This document shows, one piece after another, positions 6,017 to 37,353 of a stretch of 64,000 nt of DNA. Location: positions 3,438-67,437 of the forward strand of contig CAIOMK010000059.1 in NCBI GenBank assembly GCA_903859375.1, given 5' to 3'. Positions within the stretch are counted from its first letter, which is position 1. Each line of letters begins with the position of its first letter. This stretch comes from Candidatus Moraniibacteriota bacterium. GTDB lineage: Bacteria; Patescibacteriota; Minisyncoccia; Moranbacterales; UBA1568. The position numbers and the translations under genes were made by a program. The notes below the pieces were generated by a model. That model saw only the letters and a list, made by a program, of their open reading frames with translations. It ran no database searches and had not been told where the DNA came from.

Positions 6017-6089
6017 CGGAGTGTGGTATAGTGGTATTACGCACGATTCGGGTTCGTGTAATCCGGGTTCGATTCCCGGCACTCCGACA
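6017..6089 (+). tRNA. tRNA-Pro, anticodon CGG
   Basis: Acceptor stem CGGAGTG/CACTCCG. Anticodon stem CACGA/TCGTG with loop UUCGGGU (anticodon CGG, G37). T-arm CCGGG-TTCGATT-CCCGG. Discriminator A, no encoded CCA. Confidence 0.8.
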
Positions 6090-6249
6090 AAACAAGACTT
6101 GAAAAATGCGCAGGGTTACGGGTTTGCGAAGCATCCGGCGCATGCTGGACGATTCCCGGCACTCCGACAAAACAAGACTTGAAAAATGCGCAGGGTGACG
6201 GGTTTGCGAAGCATCCGGCGCATGCTGGACGATTCCCGGCACTCCGACA
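6071..6249 (+). repeat. Tandem direct repeat, 80-bp unit, 2.2 copies. Each copy starts with the last 19 nt of tRNA-Pro (GATTCCCGGCACTCCGACA).
   Basis: Units at 6071-6150 and 6151-6230 differ by 1 nt, with a partial third copy at 6231-6249. The first copy is the genuine tRNA 3' end. Each unit contains an internal ATGCGC...GCGCAT inverted repeat. Confidence 0.85.
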
Positions 6250-13831: not shown

Positions 13832-13849
13832 AGGATCGATTCGTTTTCG

Positions 13850-14465
13850 TTTTTCTCTTTCTGTTCCTTTCCGTCCCCGCTCCCGTCCCCGCTTTCGACT
13901 TGTAACTTTCAACTTGTAACTTTCGACTATTCTTCCCCGTCCCCGTCCCCGCTTTCGACTACTCTCCCCCCGTCCCCGTCCCCGCTTTCAACTTGTAACT
14001 TTCGACTATTCTTCCCCTTCCCCACTTTCGACTTGTAACTTTCGACTTATGACTACTCTCCGACTTGTGACTATTCTCCGCTTTTCGACTTTTCACTTTT
14101 CACTTTCGACTACTCTCCCCCCGTTCCCGTTCCCGTCCCCACTTTCGACTTGTAACTTGTGACTACTCTCCTCCCGTTCCCGTCCCCGCTTTCGACTATT
14201 CTTCCCCGTTCCCGCTTTCGACTTGTGACTTGTGACTTGTGACTTGTGACTGTTCTCCGACTTGTGACTACTCTCCTCCCGTTCCCGTTCCCGTCCCCAC
14301 TTTCGACTATTCTTCCCCGCCCCCGCTTTCGACTTTCGACTATTCTTCCCCGTTCCCACTTTCGACTTGTAACTTTCGACTTATGACTACTCTCCGACTT
14401 ATGACTACTCTCCGACTTATGACTACTCTCCCCCCGTTCCCGTTCCCGCTTTTCATTTCCTATCT
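13850..14465. repeat. Complex ~600-bp microsatellite-like array built from CCCGT(C/T)CCCG, CTTTCGACT, TGTAACTTTCGACT, TGTGACT and ATGACTACTCTCCGACTT (3x) motifs
   Basis: Direct reading of 13861-14460. Intergenic within the T4SS-like operon. Overlapping minus ORFs 14093..14359 and 14110..14778 are repeat artefacts. Confidence 0.8.
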
Positions 14466-14936
14466 CGTATCCATAAGCTTCGCGACCCTTCGTATGTCCT
14501 CGGCACTGACCGTTTTCAAATGAACCGGTTCGTTTCCCGATTTCGCTTTCATCGGCTGATATCCCGGCAAAGAAGATGGCCTTCTCCACATGAGCACTTT
14601 CGGATGCAACATGAAGAAGAAAGCGTGAACCACGTAACTGAGAAGAGGCTGTCCCGCAGGTCGATAAAATGCCAGCAGAACGAACAATACCACGATCGGC
14701 ACAGCGACGACGAAAGTCACCGTACCGGGAAAAATCGCCGCAACCGACAAGACAGTCGCGAACATGCCGATCATCCAAAACAGTTGCTTGACTGTCAGTG
14801 GACCGGCAACCTTGTCCTCGACATCTATGAACTGCGGTACATTGAACATCATAACATGGAATTGAATAGTGAACCTACCGTTGAAAACCGACGGAATACG
14901 CATGGATAGCCGTTCAATTCCCGCACAGGTCATCAA
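14460..14936 (-). CDS. PrgI/VirB3-like small membrane protein (2 TM) of Gram-positive-type T4SS. Start uncertain.
   Basis: Motif KVAGPLTVKQLFWMIGMF followed by two TM helices resembles the PrgI family. Positioned in the T4SS operon. Confidence 0.45.
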   Translation of the reverse strand: MMTCAGIERLSMRIPSVFNGRFTIQFHVMMFNVPQFIDVEDKVAGPLTVKQLFWMIGMFATVLSVAAIFPGTVTFVVAVPIVVLFVLLAFYRPAGQPLLSYVVHAFFFMLHPKVLMWRRPSSLPGYQPMKAKSGNEPVHLKTVSAEDIRRVAKLMDTR

Positions 14937-30898: not shown

Positions 30899-30932
30899 CG
30901 GACTCCTCACAGGGTCCGTTTTTCATCGGCAA
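30899..30932. terminator. Bidirectional terminator AAAAACGGACTCCTCACAGGGTCCGTTTTT
   Basis: Perfect hairpin flanked by A5 and T5. The same sequence family occurs at 38130-38164. Confidence 0.65.
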
Positions 30933-30989
30933 TTTTCCAAGGTATGAAAATAGCGTAAGAAAGATTTCTCTCTTACGCTCAAACTGCGA

Positions 30990-31442
30990 CTAATACCGAA
31001 ACGAATCCGGAATCGGCGGAGGAGTATTCTCCTCGACGACAAAGTCGTTAAGCTCGATAATCCTGAGCCCGACCTCCTCCCATGCCCCCTCGAACCCAAG
31101 GAACTTCGCATACCGTCCATATAGGGCCGGCTCTTTCTCTCTCCTCTCGCCAGAGAAGAACCAATCGTCGATGCAAGCGGTTCCTCCCTTACGAAAGTAG
31201 GCCGCCAGCATGAGATGGTCATGCGAGTCTGCAAAAGGATCGAGACACATATGGATCTCCATCAGATTGCCCTGATTCACCACGTTTCGACCGTCCCGAT
31301 GGAGTGTGAACGAACCGGCTCTTATGGCATTGCTCGTAAGCACCGTCTCCCACGCCTCGACCACAGTACGTTCCTGCTGATAATTGAACGCGCGCTGGGC
31401 TTCTGCCGCTTCGATGAATTCCTGTAAAGGCTTGCTAATCAT
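30990..31442 (-). CDS. Hypothetical 150-aa cytoplasmic protein (cassette gene A)
   Basis: RBS AAGGGAG 8 nt before ATG. Directly preceded by the two-hairpin repeat element. Confidence 0.6.
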   Translation of the reverse strand: MISKPLQEFIEAAEAQRAFNYQQERTVVEAWETVLTSNAIRAGSFTLHRDGRNVVNQGNLMEIHMCLDPFADSHDHLMLAAYFRKGGTACIDDWFFSGERREKEPALYGRYAKFLGFEGAWEEVGLRIIELNDFVVEENTPPPIPDSFRY

Positions 31443-31571
31443 GGCTCGTCTCCCTTGTATTTAATTGTGAAATGAACTGTTTCCATCTTCAGAAGTACGT
31501 ACGAGACATACCGCTGAAGATGGAGCCGACAAGAATTATTCACGTCGGCACTCCGTAAAGGTTTTTTCGAG
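31443..31571 (-). repeat. Copy A of the conserved intergenic module: leader CAGTTCATTTCACAATTAAATACAAGGGAG, hairpin 2 (CCATCTTCAG...CTGAAGATGG), hairpin 1 (GCCGAC...GTCGGC), then AGGTTTTTTCGAGG
   Basis: Near-identical copies at 32507-32636 and 33009-33113. Divergent copy with compensatory changes at 34731-34794. Confidence 0.85.
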
Positions 31572-31663
31572 GCCATCAAATCGTCGATCTCCTTCGGGAA
31601 GATCTCCTTCTTTTCCCTCTCGAAAGGGTTCTTGCGCCAACGGGTGAAGTATTCCCGTCCGAC

Positions 31664-32506
31664 CTACTCCCACTTGACGCGGAAGGTATTGGTCTCCTGC
31701 CAACCCTGTCCCTTGTTACCTACCTCGAAGGCAAATTCAAGGAAGTCCGGGCCGCGATCGGTGATCGCCGTGCTCAGCACCCGCATCCCCACGGAGTAAA
31801 ATTTCCCTCCGGGGTGGCGGAGACCGGTCCAGGACGATCCTGTGGAACAGAACCCTTTGCCTTTTACCCAGACAAAGAGTTTGTACTGATCCACGATAGC
31901 GTCGTAATCCCGGTCGTAATGAACGGCAAGCAGCGCGACGACGTCACTCTCCACGACGGTCTCGGAGTCCTTCGACCACCGATTTCCGAGGCTTTTCTCG
32001 ACATACGAACGGAACGCCTTGATGTCATCAACGACATCACTGAGCAATTTCATTCGCGCCTGAGTCGCCTCATAATCGCGGACGGAGAATACCGACAGGG
32101 TTTCGAGACCCTTCTCCGAGCTGAAGCGGTACGCCTTCACGTTGCCCCCGCCAGTGCGAAGACCGAACGTGACCGCAACCTCCGTCTCCTCGAGAATCGA
32201 GGGTGAACTGAGGCAAAGGTCCCAGTTGTCGATCTCGTGGCTGTACGCTCCGCGGTACTGTCGCATCGGACCCTCGTGTACCCGAGTCCACACATCACCG
32301 TCGCGTTTCTCAACGCAAAGAGCGTGCGAGTATGCCATGCCACCGCCGGACTTCGACACATTCTCACCGCCAATGACGATTCGGAACTGCTCTCCTTCCG
32401 GAACACGCGTTTCCGTATCGAGGTAGCGCTGTACGAGCGCTGGAACCATTGAAAGGTTCTCGCGCGTGGCAAGCGTAGCGGCGGTCTGTAGGCTGACTTC
32501 TTTCAT
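31664..32506 (-). CDS. Hypothetical 280-aa protein (cassette gene B). Start at internal Met MKEVSL; the ORF-track N-terminus METVHFTIQ is repeat-element sequence.
   Basis: RBS CAGGAG before ATG at 32506. Stop immediately followed by the conserved GGACGGG-N9-CCCGTTGGC hairpin (31632-31663). Confidence 0.6.
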   Translation of the reverse strand: MKEVSLQTAATLATRENLSMVPALVQRYLDTETRVPEGEQFRIVIGGENVSKSGGGMAYSHALCVEKRDGDVWTRVHEGPMRQYRGAYSHEIDNWDLCLSSPSILEETEVAVTFGLRTGGGNVKAYRFSSEKGLETLSVFSVRDYEATQARMKLLSDVVDDIKAFRSYVEKSLGNRWSKDSETVVESDVVALLAVHYDRDYDAIVDQYKLFVWVKGKGFCSTGSSWTGLRHPGGKFYSVGMRVLSTAITDRGPDFLEFAFEVGNKGQGWQETNTFRVKWE

Positions 32507-32636
32507 TTTTGTTTCTCCTGTTTGAATTGTGAAATGAACTGTTTCCATCTTCAGGAGTACGTACGAGACATACCGCTGAAGAGAGGGCCGACGGAATTAT
32601 TCACGTCGGCCACCAATCAGGTTTTTTCGAGATCCC
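32507..32636 (-). repeat. Copy B of the two-hairpin intergenic module
   Basis: See copy A. Fills the entire 130-nt spacer between the gene C stop and the gene B start. Confidence 0.85.
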
Positions 32637-33008
32637 TCAACTCGGCCCCTGGTTATTGAACGGGCCCGGAAAATTCCGCCACTCCCGCCTCGGCCAGACC
32701 ATCCAAAGGAAGATCCCTATCATTCCTATGGAGCCTTTACACCAGATCTCCAGCCAGAGAGGCGCCCCCTCTAGATAGGTCGGGTTGGCGATGACAAGAA
32801 TGCCGGCCCAGCACACGAGGCTGGTCATCGCGAACCAGAGGAACCCCATCATCCCCCAGTACCGCAAGAGGACGACGTCCTCACCATTCGCAATGCGCGC
32901 CCGGACAAGCTGGCGCGTTCTAACCGCCACTTTTCCAAACATCATCGCAGCCATAACCATCATGGTTGCTAGAACAGCAACGTCCTGACTAACTGTATTC
33001 ATATTCAT
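32637..33008 (-). CDS. Small (124 aa) membrane protein with 3 TM (cassette gene C). Start at MNMNTVSQ; the upstream in-frame MNNSCRLHLQRYV...METVHFTIQ is repeat-derived.
   Basis: RBS CAGGAG. Hydrophobic segments VAVLATMMVMAAMMF, GMMGFLWFAMTSLVCWAGILVI and IGMIGIFLWMVW. Confidence 0.5.
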   Translation of the reverse strand: MNMNTVSQDVAVLATMMVMAAMMFGKVAVRTRQLVRARIANGEDVVLLRYWGMMGFLWFAMTSLVCWAGILVIANPTYLEGAPLWLEIWCKGSIGMIGIFLWMVWPRREWRNFPGPFNNQGPS

Positions 33009-33113
33009 GTGTATATCTCCTGTTTGAATTGTGAAATGAACTGTTTCCATCTTCAGAAGTACGTCCAAGACATACCGCTGAAGATGGAGCCGACAAGAAT
33101 TATTCAAGTCGGC
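33009..33113 (-). repeat. Copy C of the two-hairpin intergenic module
   Basis: See copy A. The hairpin-2 loop differs slightly (GTCCAAG vs GTACGAG). Confidence 0.85.
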
Positions 33114-33818
33114 TCAAATTTTAACCAATAACAGGGACCGCATAGTTCACGCTACGGTCTACGATGTGCCAGGAGTCGCAACGTATAGTTGCATCTCCAG
33201 ACATATCGCCTTGCTCTGTTATCGGTGTTGGTATCCGGCCGGCATATGAAGAAATGTCGTTGACACTCCTTCATAAGATCCTTAGCCGAGATGCCCTGTG
33301 ATGGGAGAACTCAATCTCCGTATTCGTAGCGGGGCTTGCTCGGAAGACGTCTAGCGTGGACGCTCCACTGTTCGTCGAGACATGAACAAAAATTCATATC
33401 TCAAACGACCACCTCCTACCTACGAACCATCACCTCCTCTAGCAACGAGGCCTGTTCTCTTTGCTTCATTTCCCCTTTCGACTCAACAGAGAGAGAAAGG
33501 GTCTTCTGTTCCTGGCGGGTGAAGCGTCCCCGCCATGGGTATCCGTCTTTATGAGTCGCGCCATTGCGACCGACGGTTTGCCCATAGAATCCATAATGGA
33601 TTCTCCTCTGACTATCAAATTATCGCGCCATGCCGATGAGACAGGTGCAAATGAGTGAGTCCTCATCGCGGCTCAAGAGTACGCGTGTACCATGAGCATG
33701 ATAGCCTTCTGATTGCTACTGTTAACGGCGCACCAGGTTTCCCTGTTCAGAACGCGAATTTTTCAATTCACAGCCTGAATGAGGAGGAGAAGATACTGCG
33801 TTGATATATCTTCTCCGA

Positions 33819-34022
33819 TTACGGGGAGCACTGCCGTATATGTCTGTTATGCTCCTTCAACATCCGCGCCCACTCCTTCATGGACGGGGCCGTACGAAGA
33901 CGGGCTTCGAACATCCGCTCCGCATGAGACGCACGATGAGGACTCCTCTTCGGCGCCTTCTTGCCCCCGTTGGCCAAAATGGCAATCTGAAGCAATGTCG
34001 TCGGTCTTGCTATGTGTTTCAT
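33819..34022 (-). CDS. Hypothetical 67-aa basic protein
   Basis: ATG preceded by AAACAGGAGAAAA, the same leader/RBS context as cassette genes B and D. Conserved stop-adjacent hairpin module lies upstream at 34106-34135. Confidence 0.3.
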   Translation of the reverse strand: MKHIARPTTLLQIAILANGGKKAPKRSPHRASHAERMFEARLRTAPSMKEWARMLKEHNRHIRQCSP

Positions 34023-34171
34023 TTTTCTCCTGTTTATTTTTTGGAAAATTTGTGTGTTCGATCCGTTCGGTCGGATCTCCTTCTGTTTCCTCTTCCGGGG
34101 ATTCTGTTGCCAACGGGAGAAGTGGTCCCGTCCGAGTCTCGCTCATCGCCCTCCGCGGACGGAACAGGAGA

Positions 34172-34527
34172 TTACTTCTCCCGTTCTTTCTGGAGTCGCC
34201 GATAGTCAGCTACCGCCTCTTTGACGGCATCACTGAGTTTCGCGGCTTCCCCATGCCCATGGACTCCCCTGTCTCCGATATAGTCGACACGATATGGAAT
34301 TCTCCCGATATGGTCAGTTACCCTGACTTTCTGGAGGTTCATCCCAAGAGTGTCGACTCCCGCGAAATTCGCAGGATTATTCATCGGAAAGAAGTTGACT
34401 GCCTCATCGGTCCAGCGCAGGACCGAATCAACATCTACTTTCTTCTGCCACAGGACTGTGGCTCCGACGGACAAAATCGCGGTGACGATGACGGAAAGAA
34501 CGATACCTTTTGTATTTTCGATATACA
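34172..34527 (-). CDS. Hypothetical 118-aa N-terminally membrane-anchored protein (cassette gene D). Start at internal Met MYIENTKG.
   Basis: Strong RBS AACAGGAGATAAAC-ATG. TM GIVLSVIVTAILSVGATVLW. The leader shares AGTTCATTACACAAATTAAAACAGGAG with copies A-C. Confidence 0.55.
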
Positions 34528-34730
34528 TGTTTATCTCCTGTTTTAATTTGTGTAATGAACTCACTCTGTAACGGGATAGTATACCCTCTTTTGACCCTGC
34601 TGTCCATAGTATCGATACGTTTTGTAAATATTTATACAACATATTGACTTATTTTAGCCAATATTTGCTGTCGTAAAATACTTTACAAATATATGATATT
34701 CTTGGGTCATATCAGATATATTTCTCAATC

Positions 34731-34794
34731 CCATCTTCAAAGGCACGTAAAGTACCTGTCCTTGAAGATGGAGCCGATAGAATTTTCATATCGG
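34731..34794 (-). repeat. Copy E of the two-hairpin element (CCATCTTCAAAGG...CCTTGAAGATGG plus GCCGAT...ATCGGC). It is separated from gene D by a ~180-nt AT-rich insertion.
   Basis: Stem positions changed in a pairing-preserving way relative to copies A-C (CAG/CTG to CAAAGG/CCTTG; GCCGAC/GTCGGC to GCCGAT/ATCGGC). Confidence 0.75.
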
Positions 34795-34910
34795 CGTGTC
34801 TTGAGGTTTGTCCGAGCCCTCAACTCGTCGATCCGCTTCGGCCGGACCTCCTTCGTTTACTCCTTCCGGAGCTTCTGTTGCCAACGGGTGAAGTAGGCCC
34901 GTCCGGAGTA

Positions 34911-35312
34911 TCACCACGATGAGATTTCTCGAAGTTGCCCAGTATCATAGAGGACGGCTTGACCCCGAAAACGGGTCCAGCAATCGACTTCAACGGTGAC
35001 AATGCCTTCGTGATCGACCATAAACAGGCCGATTTCACAGTCGCACGTACCGTCGTCGTCATCGTCGTCCTCAACAATAATAGAGCACCAATCAAGCTCA
35101 TCCTCTCCAACCCTGCTTACGAGAAACGCGATGATTTTCATCTCATCCGGATCTCGTACGAGAAAGGCGCAAAGCCCTTCGCGGTCCTCTGAAAAAACCA
35201 GAGAACTTGCATGGAGTGTGGCGCCATCCGGCATCGTCTCTCCCATCACAAGCATCACAAGCTTAGAGAGAAATAATGCGCGTTCTTCCCCGACAAGAGC
35301 TTCCATTGCCAT
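34911..35312 (-). CDS. Hypothetical 133-aa acidic protein with a poly-Asp tract (cassette gene E)
   Basis: Strong RBS AGGAGGAAAC-ATG. Stop followed directly by the GGACGGG-N9-CCCGTTGGCAACAGAA hairpin module (34873-34908). Confidence 0.55.
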   Translation of the reverse strand: MAMEALVGEERALFLSKLVMLVMGETMPDGATLHASSLVFSEDREGLCAFLVRDPDEMKIIAFLVSRVGEDELDWCSIIVEDDDDDDGTCDCEIGLFMVDHEGIVTVEVDCWTRFRGQAVLYDTGQLREISSW

Positions 35313-35457
35313 GTTTCCTCCTATTTGAGGGTTGAAAAGAAAAATATTTCTTTGTATCCCGCTCCCCCGCCTGCCTCAACGGGGTCCCTTCGGGAAGGGG
35401 AGCTGTCGAGTCTTCGAGACTCTTGATCCGCGAATGCTGGGTGAGGGGTGGGAGACA

Positions 35458-35628
35458 TCAGGATCCGGCAAGCCGTTTCCTGAGCTCGGCTTTGGACCGT
35501 TTCCGGTCGTAGCCCTTTCCTCCACTCTTCGTAGAATGGGCTCCGCCCTTGTGCCGAAGAAGTTCGACAACCTCCATCGGGATGCGCCACTTCGACGGCT
35601 TCCTGACCTTTTTTATAGTCTTCGCCAT
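35458..35628 (-). CDS. Small (56 aa) highly basic protein MAKTIKKVRKPSKWRIPMEVVELLRHKGGAHSTKSGGKGYDRKRSKAELRKRLAGS
   Basis: AAGGAGG 7 nt upstream of ATG. Hairpins plus T-run terminator downstream. The longer ORF 35458..35748 is rejected. Confidence 0.5.
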   Translation of the reverse strand: MAKTIKKVRKPSKWRIPMEVVELLRHKGGAHSTKSGGKGYDRKRSKAELRKRLAGS

Positions 35629-36071
35629 CTCTACCTCCTTTTTTGTTCTTCGATTGTAAAAGTTCATCACCGGACATCGGCATTCCTTCGGGAACCATGT
35701 GCCAGAAGGCTTCATGGGGGGTATGAATATTTTGAATATTACCCCCATCCGCCAAGGCGCATGGCTCTACCAAGTGACCGACCAATCCTGCCATTCATAT
35801 CAATTCCGTCTGACAGGAGGCGTATAACCCAGTTATCCGAGAGAATACCTATCTTTTGAGGTGCCGGATTCATCAAGCTTTTCAACTTGACTCCACAGTA
35901 TATCGTATGATTCAAATCTTGTCAAGTGTTACTGACTAAATATGTGAGTATATAGTAAATAATGCTTTTGTGAAGCAATATTTTGTATATAATTATGTTC
36001 ATTATTGTTGTCATACAATGGACAATACTACGCCTAAAGAAGCCTTCGAACTGTATTCTGTTTATGACGCT

Positions 36072-36100
36072 TGACAGAACTGTTTTCCGGTGCTACTATA
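36072..36100 (+). promoter_or_regulatory. Consensus sigma70 promoter TTGACA-N17-TACTAT
   Basis: -35 at 36072-36077 and -10 at 36095-36100 within an AT-rich 35.9-36.1 kb region. Confidence 0.55.
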
Positions 36101-36107
36101 CGGGGTA

Positions 36108-36351
36108 ACGTAATTTCAGTTTTTTCACAATTAACCAAGGGAGGAAGTCATGGGGGACTATTGATACGCTCCAAGAAGATGAGCGGCACACAGAAGTGCG
36201 CTCATCTCCAAGAAGGGACCACATCAATTAATCTTCATGAAAGAACCCTCAATCTCCAATAACATCAAAAAAACGACCATGTCTGACTAGTAGAAAAAAT
36301 CATTCGACTGTCTCGTGAAAAACTCACGAATTGATGGTCTCAAAGAAGCGG
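36108..36351 (+). ncRNA. Candidate ~300-nt promoter-to-terminator transcript without a credible ORF (only a 4-codon MGDY and a 17-codon ORF). sRNA or leader-peptide RNA candidate.
   Basis: Begins with leader CAGTTTTTTCACAATTAACCAAGGGAGGAAGTC-ATG, which resembles the cassette-gene leaders. Internal hairpin GATGAGCGGCACACAGAAGTGCGCTCATC. Ends at a strong bidirectional terminator. Confidence 0.3.
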
Positions 36352-36415
36352 AATCGAAAAAAGGGCCCCGGAACAATATACTTTATGTATATCCGGAGGC
36401 CCTTCTTTTTATTTC
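36352..36415. terminator. Bidirectional terminator (GGGCCCCGGA...TCCGGAGGCCC with T-runs on both sides)
   Basis: A6 upstream and TTCTTTTTATTT downstream. Serves the plus-strand transcript and the convergent TrmB gene. Confidence 0.6.
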
Positions 36416-36418
36416 AAT

Positions 36419-37183
36419 CTATTCCTGATATTTTTCCGCTCCCTCCCATGCCAGATCAAGGATTGCCCGCACAGAATCCGCGATTTCCTTATCTTCAATG
36501 ATGATACCGAGTAATCGGTCGCCAAGCGAAGCTATCCGAACCTTATCATCGAGAATAGCGATGTCGCTTTTTATCGGAAACTTATCAAATGGTACTTTTC
36601 TTCGCTCGCCATCAACAGTACTCTCCAAAACACCGTTTTTATAGGTATATATCACCCTCGTCTTGATTTTTTTGTCGAGCCTTTTCGTTTTTGCCCGAGC
36701 CCGTTCCTCTTTCATGAAAACATTATCAACCGCATCAACCGAATACGCCATAGGAACGACGCTTCCGGATGCGACCTTTATCGTCTCTTCGTTCATGGCC
36801 GATATACCTTCCTTTCCCTCGAAATACTTCACGACTGGTCGACCGGACTGCTTGTTGTTTATCGATTGAAGTTGCGGGATAAGCTTTTTCAGCTCTTCCG
36901 ATTTCCGCTCCATTTCCCGCTTCTGTTCATCGAGTATTTCGACGAGCCGATCCGGATCGGTCGCGATAAAAAATTGCTTCTTTCCCTGATGGAAACTGCT
37001 GATAAGCCCTTTGGCCGTGAGTCCCTCGATGATAAAATAGGTCGTCGCGCGGTTCACGCCGGACCTGCTCGAGATTCCCTGTACTGCCGACTGCCCCAAC
37101 TCCAAAGAGGCCAGATAGACCTTCGCTTCCTTTTCATTGAGTCCGATTTCCACCAGTTCCCGTTCGAACATACCGGTTTGCAT
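36419..37183 (-). CDS. TrmB-family transcriptional regulator (254 aa)
   Basis: N-terminal HTH LNEKEAKVYLASLELGQSAVQGISSRSGVNRATTYFIIEGL, TrmB-type. Confidence 0.7.
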   Translation of the reverse strand: MQTGMFERELVEIGLNEKEAKVYLASLELGQSAVQGISSRSGVNRATTYFIIEGLTAKGLISSFHQGKKQFFIATDPDRLVEILDEQKREMERKSEELKKLIPQLQSINNKQSGRPVVKYFEGKEGISAMNEETIKVASGSVVPMAYSVDAVDNVFMKEERARAKTKRLDKKIKTRVIYTYKNGVLESTVDGERRKVPFDKFPIKSDIAILDDKVRIASLGDRLLGIIIEDKEIADSVRAILDLAWEGAEKYQE

Positions 37184-37353
37184 TATTTCGATTGTACGCC
37201 ATTATACCACGGATACAGACCGCATTTCCACGTTCCGCTGTCGAAAGGGCCGATACATCGGGAAAGAATCGACAGATGGACGCCCTGTGCAAAAACAAAT
37301 TCCAGCACCCTTTCGGCATTTTACGGATGTCGTATTTTTTGTCATGATACACC

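What the first reader, a model, noticed from the sequence alone, without database searches (positions are those of the whole stretch)
36072..36415. Strongly promoted ~300-nt ORF-less transcript sharing the cassette-gene leader
A near-consensus promoter (TTGACA-N17-TACTAT) is followed by the same leader motif used by the cassette genes (CAGTTTTTTCACAATTAACCAAGGGAGG), with an ATG opening only a 4-codon ORF (MGDY-stop).

The next ~250 nt contain a strong internal hairpin (GATGAGCG...CGCTCATC) and end at a robust bidirectional terminator.

This fits either a small regulatory RNA or a leader-peptide attenuator detached from any structural gene. The downstream gene is convergent.

The shared leader hints at a regulatory link with the repeat-bearing cassette array. 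One possibility is an RNA that base-pairs with the conserved leader.
Basis: seen in the sequence. Interest (0 to 1): 0.5.

Follow-up and report, generated by a model that had tools for sequence, protein, structure and literature searches.

The report
Conserved small RNA carrying two mini-ORFs
The flagged stretch is a real small RNA gene, conserved in at least 14 related candidate-phyla (Moranbacteria-like) genomes, and it carries two ultra-short reading frames of 2-4 codons that almost always contain aspartate, which fits no described RNA family.

Summary

The same transcription unit sits at the same position in 14 distinct Patescibacteria genomes (TrmB 63-85% identical). It is not a decayed gene and it is not truly ORF-less.

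All 14 carry two tiny ORFs of 2-4 codons, of the form M-(x)-D/E-(x)-stop. In the window these are MGDY (36150-36164) and MSD (36279-36290).
- Start, acidic codon and in-frame stop are conserved.
- All three stop codons are used, Gly, Asp and Ser codons change synonymously, and length changes in whole codons.
- ORF1 always has a strong Shine-Dalgarno sequence.
- A covarying hairpin follows ORF1 in every genome.

Rfam has no match. I found no conserved complementarity to the cassette leaders.

Best reading: an abundant, ribosome-engaged "minigene" RNA whose act of translation, not its peptide, is the signal. It is probably tied to the neighbouring regulator and small-gene array. Its function is inferred, not shown.

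The parts
36071..36099 (+). Sigma-70 promoter: TTGACA, 17-nt spacer, TG-n-TACTAT (extended -10). Predicted transcription start about 36105-36107.
   Evidence: Promoter scan. The -35 box and the TGCTA...T -10 are kept in all 14 homologues.
36106..36149 (+). 44-nt 5' leader containing the motif CAGTTTTTTCACAATTAAC (36117-36135) shared with cassette-gene leaders, and the Shine-Dalgarno sequence GGAGG (36140-36144).
   Evidence: TT[CA]ACAATT occurs only 4 times in the window, always just upstream of a start codon. The motif is kept in the RNA in L001, L024, L149, L002, L003, L147 and L150. It also lies in front of cassette genes in L003/L148 and L150.
36150..36164 (+). Mini-ORF1: ATG GGG GAC TAT TGA (MGDY-stop).
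   Evidence: Orthologous mini-ORF in 14 genomes: MGDY, MGDH, MGD, MND, MD, ME, MDD, MGDL. Stops are TGA, TAA or TAG, always 5-8 nt after a strong Shine-Dalgarno sequence.
36178..36206 (+). Hairpin 1: GAUGAGCGGCAC / GUGCGCUCAUC.
   Evidence: A hairpin is present after ORF1 in all 14 genomes, with different sequences in the distant ones. On 8 sequences: 90% of cells paired, 7 pairs with changes on both sides, 0/500 shuffles reach the score.
36236..36263 (+). Conserved block CATGAAAGAACCCTCAATCTCCAATAAC in the spacer. It is conserved at the nucleotide level, and its reading frame is not conserved.
   Evidence: Alignments A1-A3: shared with L001, L024 and L149 but frame-shifted relative to them. 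RNAalifold proposes pairing with the ORF1 Shine-Dalgarno/AUG region, but only 3 of 5 sequences support it.
36279..36290 (+). Mini-ORF2: ATG TCT GAC TAG (MSD-stop). No obvious Shine-Dalgarno sequence in this genome.
   Evidence: Orthologous second mini-ORF in all 14 genomes: MSD, MGDG, MND, MGD, MEG, MD, MDD, (V)CD, (V)GD. It has a strong Shine-Dalgarno sequence in 9 of 14. The pattern ATG-NNN-GAY-(NNN)-stop is expected 0.012 times per 300 nt.
36313..36347 (+). Hairpin TCGTGA-AAAAC-TCACGA followed by ATTGATGGTCTCAAAGAA. This resembles the 3' end of the ~99-nt repeat that follows cassette stop codons.
   Evidence: blastn match of 36326-36347 to 31584-31563 on the minus strand. Fold. This 3' domain is variable among homologues.
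36364..36412 (.). Bidirectional intrinsic terminator shared with the convergent TrmB-family gene.
   Evidence: Fold. A terminator sits in the same place in 13 of the 14 homologues; the extracted L154 region ends at a hairpin without a T-run.
36419..37171 (-). Convergent TrmB-family winged-helix regulator gene (250 aa). It is the constant neighbour of the RNA.
   Evidence: Pfam PF01978. P0001 is 100% identical. The RNA lies next to the orthologue in every locus, including the two loci found by DNA pattern alone, L024 and L114.
35897..35925 (-). Back-to-back sigma-70 promoter (TTGACA-17-TATACT) that drives the array of small genes. It lies 146 nt from the RNA promoter.
   Evidence: Promoter scan, 11 of 12 positions. 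Conserved in L004, L005 and L151-L154 at 178-278 nt from the RNA -35 box.

Best explanation
This is a conserved, independently transcribed small RNA gene of about 305 nt in this genome and up to roughly 440 nt in relatives. It belongs to a Moranbacteria-like clade of Patescibacteria.

The RNA runs from its own near-consensus promoter to a bidirectional terminator. It carries two strong translation-initiation sites, each opening a 2-4-codon ORF of the form Met-(x)-Asp/Glu-(x)-stop, and a stable hairpin follows ORF1.

Most likely mechanism:
- Ribosomes load on these minigenes.
- The event of translating them is the functional output, not the di- to tetrapeptide. That event could be ribosome occupancy, pausing, slow termination or peptidyl-tRNA drop-off on an acidic residue placed right after fMet.
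- The RNA thereby acts as a translation-coupled sensor or regulator for its own locus: the convergent TrmB-family regulator, and the divergently transcribed array of small genes whose mRNAs carry the same 5' leader module.

Shown: conservation, synteny, the coding-type conservation pattern of the mini-ORFs, and hairpin covariation.

Inferred: that the RNA is transcribed, that the mini-ORFs are translated, and all of the downstream function.
For: Conservation and synteny:
- The same unit is found in 14 distinct genomes, always convergent with the TrmB orthologue. Two of these loci were found by a DNA pattern that did not use TrmB.
- The 5' core is 65-79% identical between genomes. Third-codon positions of the adjacent gene are only 40-60% identical.

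Coding-type signature in all 28 mini-ORFs:
- ATG or GTG start, with a strong Shine-Dalgarno sequence before every ORF1 and before 9 of 14 ORF2 copies.
- The in-frame stop is always kept but is interchangeably TAA, TAG or TGA.
- Length changes only in whole codons (2, 3 or 4).
- Synonymous changes occur: GGG/GGA/GGC/GGT, GAC/GAT, TCT/TCC.
- An acidic codon is present in 28 of 28 (Asp in 26, Glu in 2).
- The pattern is expected 0.012 times per 300 nt, and only 4 copies occur in 128 kb of both strands, two of them here.

The spacer between the ORFs is not coding: spacing of 98-142 nt, not in multiples of three.

Hairpin 1 covaries.

Other support:
- Single copy in the window (covariance model R1, 113 bits).
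- The leader motif is specific to this locus and shared with cassette genes in at least three lineages.
- Published work shows that acidic residues very early in a nascent chain pause or destabilise bacterial ribosomes, and that cells use this for regulation: EttA and MgtL (PMC11282234) and the intrinsic-ribosome-destabilisation papers listed.
- Minigenes of 2-8 codons are known to sequester tRNA as peptidyl-tRNA (PMC2490762).
Against: - There are no expression or ribosome-profiling data. Transcription and translation are both inferred from sequence.
- ORF2 lacks a recognisable Shine-Dalgarno sequence in 5 of 14 genomes, including this one.
- A third CATG-NNN-GA motif at 36236 has no conserved frame. 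So part of the 'AUG...GA' signal could be an RNA-level motif.
- The distance from the ORF1 stop to the hairpin varies from 0 to about 20 nt, so there is no fixed geometry between ribosome and hairpin.
- No target has been identified. No alternative terminator/antiterminator fold was seen by inspection, and no conserved complementarity to neighbouring transcripts was found.
- A single Asp or Glu is much weaker than the runs of acidic residues studied experimentally.
- The sample was collected mainly through TrmB orthologues, so linkage to TrmB is partly ascertainment.
Confidence: 0.55

Rival explanations
1. It is an untranslated structured sRNA or a protein/ribosome sponge. On this view the Shine-Dalgarno-like and AUG...GAY elements are binding motifs, for a leader-binding regulator, for 30S subunits or for a CsrA-like protein. 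The RNA would act as a decoy for the factor that recognises the shared cassette leader.
For: - The 5' leader module is shared with the cassette mRNAs and evolves together with them.
- There is nucleotide-level conservation without a reading frame in the spacer block 36236-36263, and a third CATG-NNN-GA motif there.
- ORF2 has no Shine-Dalgarno sequence in 5 genomes.
- The RNA is strongly structured (z = -5.7) and its hairpin covaries.
Against: - Interchange of the three stop codons, indels in whole codons and synonymous codon changes are hard to explain without a reading frame.
- There are only 2-3 GGA motifs.
- No Rfam family matches.
- No candidate binding protein has been identified.
Confidence: 0.2
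2. It is an attenuator-type unit that controls convergent (antisense) transcription into the TrmB-family gene. Ribosome behaviour on the mini-ORFs would decide how much transcription reads through the shared terminator and interferes with TrmB expression.
For: - The convergent arrangement with a shared terminator is found in all 14 genomes.
- It has a strong promoter and leader-peptide-like mini-ORFs followed by hairpins.
Against: - The terminators are long and GC-rich.
- By inspection of the window sequence I saw no upstream segment complementary to the 5' arm of the terminator stem. This was not tested by computation.
- The 3' domain between ORF2 and the terminator is poorly conserved and 100-300 nt long.
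Confidence: 0.12
3. It is a decayed gene cassette: a cassette leader and start codon left behind after the coding region eroded, with no function of its own.
For: - The leader resembles the cassette leaders.
- The 3' part resembles the repeat that follows cassette stop codons.
- The RNA is built from the same kind of modules as cassette junctions: small hairpin, A-rich leader, Shine-Dalgarno sequence, ATG.
Against: - It is kept in 14 genomes whose TrmB orthologues are only 63-85% identical at the protein level, with the core conserved above the neutral rate.
- None of the 14 homologous loci has an intact gene in its place.
- L002, L147 and others keep the RNA leader although their cassettes use other leaders.
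Confidence: 0.04
4. It is a DNA-level regulatory region, with operators or cruciform-forming repeats for the TrmB-family regulators, rather than an RNA gene.
For: - It lies next to two TrmB-family genes.
- The hairpin 1 arms form an inverted repeat.
- There is a conserved AT-rich block between the two promoters.
Against: - Promoter, Shine-Dalgarno sequence, start, stop and terminator are conserved together.
- Hairpin arms change by compensatory substitutions, and they are replaced by unrelated sequences that still pair.
- Stop-codon interchange makes no sense for a protein-binding site.
Confidence: 0.05

Closest known systems
Phage lambda bar minigenes and synthetic 2-8-codon minigenes
   Same: A Shine-Dalgarno sequence followed by a 2-4-codon ORF and a stop, inside a transcript that encodes no protein. 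The effect is attributed to the act of translation (peptidyl-tRNA drop-off, tRNA and ribosome sequestration), not to the peptide (PMC2490762; own knowledge for bar).
   Different: Here there are two minigenes in a dedicated, conserved chromosomal RNA gene with its own promoter and terminator. The conserved codon is Asp or Glu, not Ile or Arg. Toxicity and drop-off are untested.
Leader-peptide attenuators and their trans-acting derivatives (trpL/rnTrpL type), and MgtL
   Same: A short translated ORF followed by hairpins. In MgtL, acidic or proline residues near the N-terminus destabilise the ribosome and turn translation into a sensor (PMC11282234; papers listed).
   Different: There is no co-oriented structural gene downstream, and no alternative terminator/antiterminator was seen by inspection. 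The ORFs are 2-4 codons instead of 14-30, with one or two acidic codons only.
Start-stop and very short upstream ORFs found by retapamulin ribosome profiling
   Same: A ribosome-binding site with an almost immediate stop codon, so a ribosome initiates and terminates in place (bioRxiv 10.1101/520783 and PMC13285730, listed).
   Different: Those lie inside or upstream of genes and are mostly not conserved. Here the two sites are the most conserved features of a free-standing RNA, and an acidic sense codon is always kept.
Dual-function sRNAs (SgrS/SgrT, RNAIII/hld, SR1/SR1P)
   Same: A stand-alone sRNA gene that also contains a translated ORF (own knowledge).
   Different: Their ORFs encode peptides of about 26-43 residues with their own activity, plus a defined base-pairing region. 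Here the ORFs are too short and too variable for a peptide function, and no pairing region was found.

Membership tests
Any curated Rfam family (riboswitch, ribozyme, 6S, tmRNA, RNase P, SRP, T-box, known sRNAs) | Covariance-model score at or above the family gathering threshold | tested here: not met
   No hit in 36000-36450 at gathering thresholds. None even at E<=5 on 30900-36500. None in seven homologous loci (L001-L005, L024, L114) at gathering thresholds.
Leader-peptide transcription attenuator | Co-oriented structural gene(s) downstream of the leader | tested here: not met
   The next gene is convergent in all 14 genomes.
Leader-peptide transcription attenuator | Short translated ORF containing the sensed codon(s) | tested here: inconclusive
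   Two 2-4-codon ORFs with a conserved Asp or Glu codon. Translation and sensing are not testable here.
Leader-peptide transcription attenuator | Mutually exclusive terminator/antiterminator structures | not tested
   No computation was run. By eye, no upstream segment of the window sequence is complementary to the 5' arm of the terminator stem. The MFE and centroid folds were read only to locate the terminator.
Minigene (lambda bar type) | Shine-Dalgarno sequence, then a start codon, 1-7 sense codons and a stop, in a non-coding transcript | tested here: met
   ORF1 is GGAGG, 5 nt, then ATG GGG GAC TAT TGA. ORF2 is ATG TCT GAC TAG.
Minigene (lambda bar type) | Peptidyl-tRNA drop-off or tRNA sequestration on expression | not testable with these tools
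   Needs expression in a host with limiting peptidyl-tRNA hydrolase, or peptidyl-tRNA profiling.
Hammerhead ribozyme (considered because hairpin 1 reads GAUGAGC and a related array contains hammerheads) | CUGANGA ... GAAA core around three stems | tested here: not met
   The sequence is AGAUGAGCG or GGAUGAGCG, lacking C3, and no GAAA junction follows. There is no Rfam hammerhead hit in the window. Genuine type III hammerheads were found only in the L002 array.
Base-pairing sRNA targeting the cassette leader | Conserved complementarity to the target | tested here: not met
   The leader copy has the same sense as the cassette leaders. No plus/plus matches were found. Duplex energies are within the range of shuffles. 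The best local duplex is not conserved.
Degenerate gene or pseudogene | Frame-conserving similarity to an intact homologue elsewhere | tested here: not met
   None of the 14 homologous loci has a gene here. Spacer lengths differ by non-multiples of three.

The most novel reading that the evidence does not exclude
It could be a dedicated 'minigene RNA'. On this reading a cell deliberately makes an abundant RNA whose only coding content is two Met-(x)-Asp mini-ORFs. Ribosome pausing, slow termination or peptidyl-tRNA(Asp) drop-off on them would report translational or energy status. That signal would control a neighbouring array of small genes punctuated by hairpins or ribozymes, together with its TrmB-type regulator, in ultra-small CPR bacteria. 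This would be a new class of translation-coupled riboregulator.
Probability: 0.2. Interest if true: 0.8.

Novelty: new variant of a known kind. Interest (0 to 1): 0.6.

Why it matters
Very short ORFs of 2-4 codons are usually dismissed as noise. The known natural example, the lambda bar minigenes, has no established physiological role.

Here two such ORFs are the best-conserved features of a free-standing RNA gene. The conservation pattern (start, acidic codon, interchangeable stops, whole-codon indels) is one that only a reading frame explains.

If they are translated, this is a natural and evolutionarily maintained use of minigenes. It would also give a concrete handle on how early acidic residues are exploited for regulation.

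Finally, it marks a conserved locus in uncultivated Patescibacteria: a TrmB-family regulator, this RNA, and a small-gene array with structured junctions that include hammerhead ribozymes in one relative. Almost nothing is known about gene regulation in these organisms.

Tried and rejected
- **Rfam.** Searched at gathering and at permissive thresholds, on the window and on homologous loci. Nothing was found for this RNA.
- **TGA recoding or read-through into one 46-codon ORF.** ORF1 and ORF2 are in frame in the window (129 nt apart). I rejected this because other genes in the window end in TGA, and the ORF1-ORF2 spacing is out of frame in most homologues.
- **Hairpin 1 as a hammerhead core.** Rejected: no C3 and no GAAA junction.
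- **Pairing with cassette leaders, junctions or the array 5'UTR.** No signal above shuffles and no conservation. Full-length duplexfold output is not physically meaningful, so I used it only as a null check. My first script with a home-made dinucleotide shuffle timed out.
- **Integron attC reading of the cassette repeats.** By eye, the repeats show no R''/R' core sites. The 17 ORFs submitted to Pfam around the array and across the window include no tyrosine recombinase, but most ORFs in the window were not scanned. Not pursued further.
- **ArfA-like identity of the divergent 55-aa basic protein.** This came from memory of a KGKGSY-type motif. There are no Pfam, NCBIfam or PDB-sequence hits, so I dropped it.
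- **Metagenome DNA-pattern scan.** GATGAGC. Only L024 and L114 were genuine. The viral scan gave no genuine hit.
- **Covariance model R1.** It recovers only the eight sequences it was trained on. It reaches the distant clade only at E about 0.2.
- **Exact look-up of the 254-aa TrmB ORF.** It failed because the real gene starts 4 codons later.

Full report

Yes. Reading 35400-37200 and the consensus scan give the following features.
- Promoter: TTGACA at 36071-36076, a 17-nt spacer, and an extended -10 (TG at 36091-92, TACTAT at 36094-36099).
- Leader: CAGTTTTTTCACAATTAACCAAGGGAGG at 36117-36144.
- ORF1: ATG GGG GAC TAT TGA at 36150-36164, five bases after GGAGG.
- Hairpin: GATGAGCGGCAC/GTGCGCTCATC at 36178-36206.
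- Terminator: a long GC-rich stem at 36364-36412 with T-runs on both strands.
- Downstream gene: a convergent TrmB-family gene (Pfam PF01978). Its true extent is 36419-37171, because a 250-aa database protein is 100% identical.

The 308-nt RNA folds at -88.3 kcal/mol, z = -5.7.

The exact 28-nt leader is unique in the window. Its core TT[CA]ACAATT occurs only four times in 64 kb. One copy is here. The other three lie 18-24 nt before the start codons of cassette genes on the minus strand, at 31471, 32533 and 33035. The shared leader is therefore real and specific to this locus.

**2. Context**

The window is a bacterial chromosome. It encodes PolA, UvrD/PcrA, a type II/IV secretion ATPase, a VirB4/TraG-like ATPase and a Mur ligase. 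Homologous loci identify it as a Moranbacteria-like member of the Patescibacteria.

The cassette array lies on the minus strand, from its own promoter (TTGACA-17-TATACT, 35925-35897) down to about 30990.
- The first gene encodes a 55-aa basic protein. Small hypothetical genes with no Pfam or NCBIfam match follow it.
- The genes are separated by repeated structured junctions: a ~99-nt three-hairpin repeat after stop codons, a GCCGAC...GTCGGC hairpin, a CCATCTTCAG...CTGAAGATGG hairpin, and then the leader.

The flagged RNA is transcribed in the opposite direction. Its promoter is back-to-back with the array promoter, 146 nt away.

**3. Relatives**

I collected related loci in three ways.
- A genome scan anchored on the TrmB protein.
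- One metagenome pattern scan.
- Contig look-ups for TrmB homologues.

This gave 14 distinct genomes carrying the same unit: window = L155, L001, L024, L149, L002, L003 = L114 = L148, L147, L150, L151, L152, L153, L154, L004 and L005. The TrmB orthologues are 63-85% identical to the window protein.

In every genome the unit lies between the 3' end of the TrmB orthologue and the promoter region of the downstream small-gene array. That array promoter was located explicitly in the window and in L004, L005 and L151-L154. The RNA unit has a TTGACA-N17-TGCTA...T promoter in all 14 and an intrinsic terminator in 13 of them; the L154 region extracted ends at a hairpin without a T-run.

The left flank of TrmB differs between genomes: Mur ligase/FemAB, a helicase, PolA, YebC/RuvC, or an S1-domain protein. 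So TrmB, the RNA and the array travel together.

The 5' core of the RNA is 65-79% identical to the window sequence. Third-codon positions of the adjacent TrmB gene are only 40-60% identical. This indicates purifying selection.

More distant TrmB neighbourhoods differ.
- L008 (48% identity) has a single mini-ORF, MDHGS.
- L009, L011 and L013 (40-44%) have a strongly promoted convergent RNA with a conserved 27-codon ORF.
- Others have ordinary genes.

**4. It is not ORF-less**

Every member has two tiny ORFs.

| | Peptides in the 14 genomes |
|---|---|
| ORF1 | MGDY, MGDH, MGDH, MGD, MGD, MND, MD, MD, ME, MDD, MND, MGDL, MDD, MDD |
| ORF2 | MSD, MSD, MGDG, MGDG, MND, MGD, MND, MEG, MD, MGD, MDD, (V)CD, (V)GD, MND |

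In the window, ORF2 is ATG TCT GAC TAG at 36279-36290.

The conservation pattern is that of a reading frame.
- The start codon is kept.
- An acidic codon is kept in 28 of 28 (Asp in 26).
- An in-frame stop is always kept, but is freely TAA, TAG or TGA.
- Length changes only in whole codons (2-4).
- Gly, Asp and Ser codons change synonymously.

ORF1 always follows a strong Shine-Dalgarno sequence at 5-8 nt. ORF2 does so in 9 of 14 genomes, but not in the window.

The pattern ATG-NNN-GAY-(NNN)-stop is expected 0.012 times per 300 nt. It occurs only four times on both strands of the window, and two of those are here.

The 98-142-nt spacing between the two ORFs varies by non-multiples of three. 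The spacer is therefore not coding, and the idea of one read-through ORF with in-frame TGAs fails.

**5. Structure**

A stable hairpin follows ORF1 in all 14 genomes.
- In the closer clade it is GAUGAGC.../...GCUCAUC, with compensatory changes. For example, L002 has GAUGAGCAGC/GCUGCUCAUC and L151 has GGUGAGC/GCUCACC.
- In L004, L005, L152 and L154 it is replaced by unrelated sequences that still pair.

On eight sequences, 90% of cells are paired, seven pairs show changes on both sides, and 0 of 500 shuffles reach the score. Sliding the pairing partners destroys the signal.

RNAalifold also proposes a longer-range pairing of the ORF1 Shine-Dalgarno/AUG region with the conserved block 36236-36263. 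Only three of five sequences support it, so I do not rely on it.

The 3' domain after ORF2 is variable. In the window it contains a hairpin followed by ATTGATGGTCTC, which resembles the end of the repeat that follows cassette stop codons.

**6. Relation to the cassettes**

The RNA is built from the same modules as the cassette junctions: a small hairpin, an A/U-rich leader, a Shine-Dalgarno sequence and ATG.
- The TT[ACT]ACAATT leader lies in front of cassette genes in the window, in L003/L148 and in L150. It also lies in the RNA of eight genomes, including some whose cassettes use other leaders.
- In the distant clade the cassette junctions are CUCUCUC...GAGAGGG hairpins followed by AAAUAAAAA and a Shine-Dalgarno sequence. 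The RNA's second ribosome-binding site has a similar A-rich context.
- In L002 the junction repeats contain bona fide type III hammerhead ribozymes (48.5 and 42.6 bits, E = 9e-9 and 4e-7). The array transcripts are therefore probably processed at their junctions.
- The window's junction repeats have no Rfam match.

**7.

An independent regulatory or leader-peptide-like RNA is the right class. The degraded-gene alternative is close to excluded.

Pairing with the cassette leader is not supported.
- The copy has the same sense as the cassette leaders.
- No complementary stretch was found.
- Duplex energies against five junctions are within the range of shuffles.
- One strong local duplex exists, UCAUGGGGG with CCCCCAUGA in the array 5'UTR. 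It depends on the window-specific GGGGGA codons and is absent in other genomes.

**8. Mechanism**

My preferred reading is that ribosomes load on two minigenes, and that the translation event itself is the signal. Several observations point this way.
- The peptides are too short and too variable (MD to MGDY) to be the product under selection.
- What is constant is fMet followed at once, or after one residue, by an acidic residue and then a stop.
- Published experiments show that acidic residues very early in a nascent chain pause or destabilise bacterial ribosomes, and that cells use this for regulation. Examples are EttA-dependent genes, MgtL, and intrinsic ribosome destabilisation (PMC11282234; papers listed).
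- Minigenes can trap tRNA as peptidyl-tRNA (PMC2490762).

The constant neighbours and the shared leader module suggest that the output concerns the TrmB-type regulator and the array. This could work by competition for ribosomes or for a leader-binding factor. All of this is inference.

Rivals, with my confidence in each:
- An untranslated structured RNA or sponge: 0.2.
- An attenuator of convergent transcription into TrmB: 0.12.
- A DNA-level operator region: 0.05.
- A decayed cassette: 0.04.

**9. Novelty**

No Rfam family and no paper in the searched library describes this.

The closest known things are the lambda bar minigenes, leader-peptide attenuators (including MgtL and trans-acting trpL derivatives), start-stop ORFs and dual-function sRNAs. 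It differs from each.
- It is a free-standing, conserved RNA gene.
- It has two 2-4-codon ORFs.
- It has a conserved acidic codon.
- It has no downstream gene.

I rate it a new variant of a known kind.

**10. Limits**
- There are no expression data.
- The sample is biased towards TrmB-linked loci.
- The metagenome scan was truncated.
- The covariance model does not reach the distant clade.
- The function is unknown.

Noticed in passing
L002 2983-3037 and 3715-3769 (+): The inter-gene repeats of the homologous small-gene array in a related genome (Kiruna_bin-03023) contain type III hammerhead ribozymes. Scores are 42.6 and 48.5 bits, E = 4e-7 and 9e-9. The array mRNAs are therefore probably self-cleaved between genes.
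   Followed up: partly
window 31443-31663, 32507-32636, 33007-33160, 34023-34171, 34528-34905 (minus strand): The cassette junctions are long structured repeats. Each has a ~99-nt three-hairpin unit after stop codons (with compensatory changes among its three copies), a GCCGAC..GTCGGC hairpin and a CCATCTTCAG..CTGAAGATGG hairpin. There is no Rfam match at E<=5. Relatives have the same architecture with other sequences (CUCUCUC...GAGAGGG). These are candidates for an undescribed processing element or ribozyme.
   Followed up: partly
window 35626-35890 (minus strand): There is a ~265-nt 5'UTR between the array promoter and the 55-aa basic-protein gene. Blocks such as GGAGTCA...CCTCAAAAGATAG...ATGGCAG are conserved even in L004 and L005. 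It is a candidate structured leader with no Rfam match.
   Followed up: no
window 35458-35625 (minus strand): A 55-aa very basic protein (KWRLPxEVVxLLRHKGGAHSTKSGKxGYDRKRSKAELR) is the first gene of the array in the closer clade. It is 71-86% identical in six distinct related genomes, and a weaker match (48%, E = 2e-10) lies elsewhere in L154. It has no Pfam, NCBIfam or PDB-sequence match.
   Followed up: partly
L009, L011, L013 (within about 700 nt downstream of the TrmB gene, convergent strand): In more distant genomes the TrmB orthologue faces a different strongly promoted RNA of about 450 nt. It contains a conserved 27-codon ORF (MFWGYRATGKKWLQKRRTEHCGSEGG). L014 has a 57-codon ORF ending in HCPAGG.
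   Followed up: no
window 35957-36070: An AT-rich block between the two back-to-back promoters is conserved with L002 (83% identity). Its core (TATATnTATGTTnAT...TTGTCAT) is also recognisable by eye in L024 and L001. A TGTCCATAA motif just upstream of the RNA -35 box is conserved in L001, L002 and L003. Both are possible operators for the adjacent TrmB-family regulators.
   Followed up: no
window 33120-33800 (minus strand): This part of the array has no convincing ORF, yet it is 79-90% identical to L003. L003 holds two diverged copies of it. It may be a non-coding cassette or a pseudogene.
   Followed up: no
window 6017-6249: tRNA-Pro (CGG) is followed by 80-nt tandem repeats that each begin with the last ~20 nt of the tRNA (CGATTCCCGGCACTCCGACA, three copies). 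This looks like repeated integration-site duplications.
   Followed up: no
window 13843-14471: A dense array of degenerate direct repeats (CCCGTCCCCGCTTTCGACTTGTAACTTTCGACT-like units, periods 14-111 nt) overlaps ORFs on both strands.
   Followed up: no
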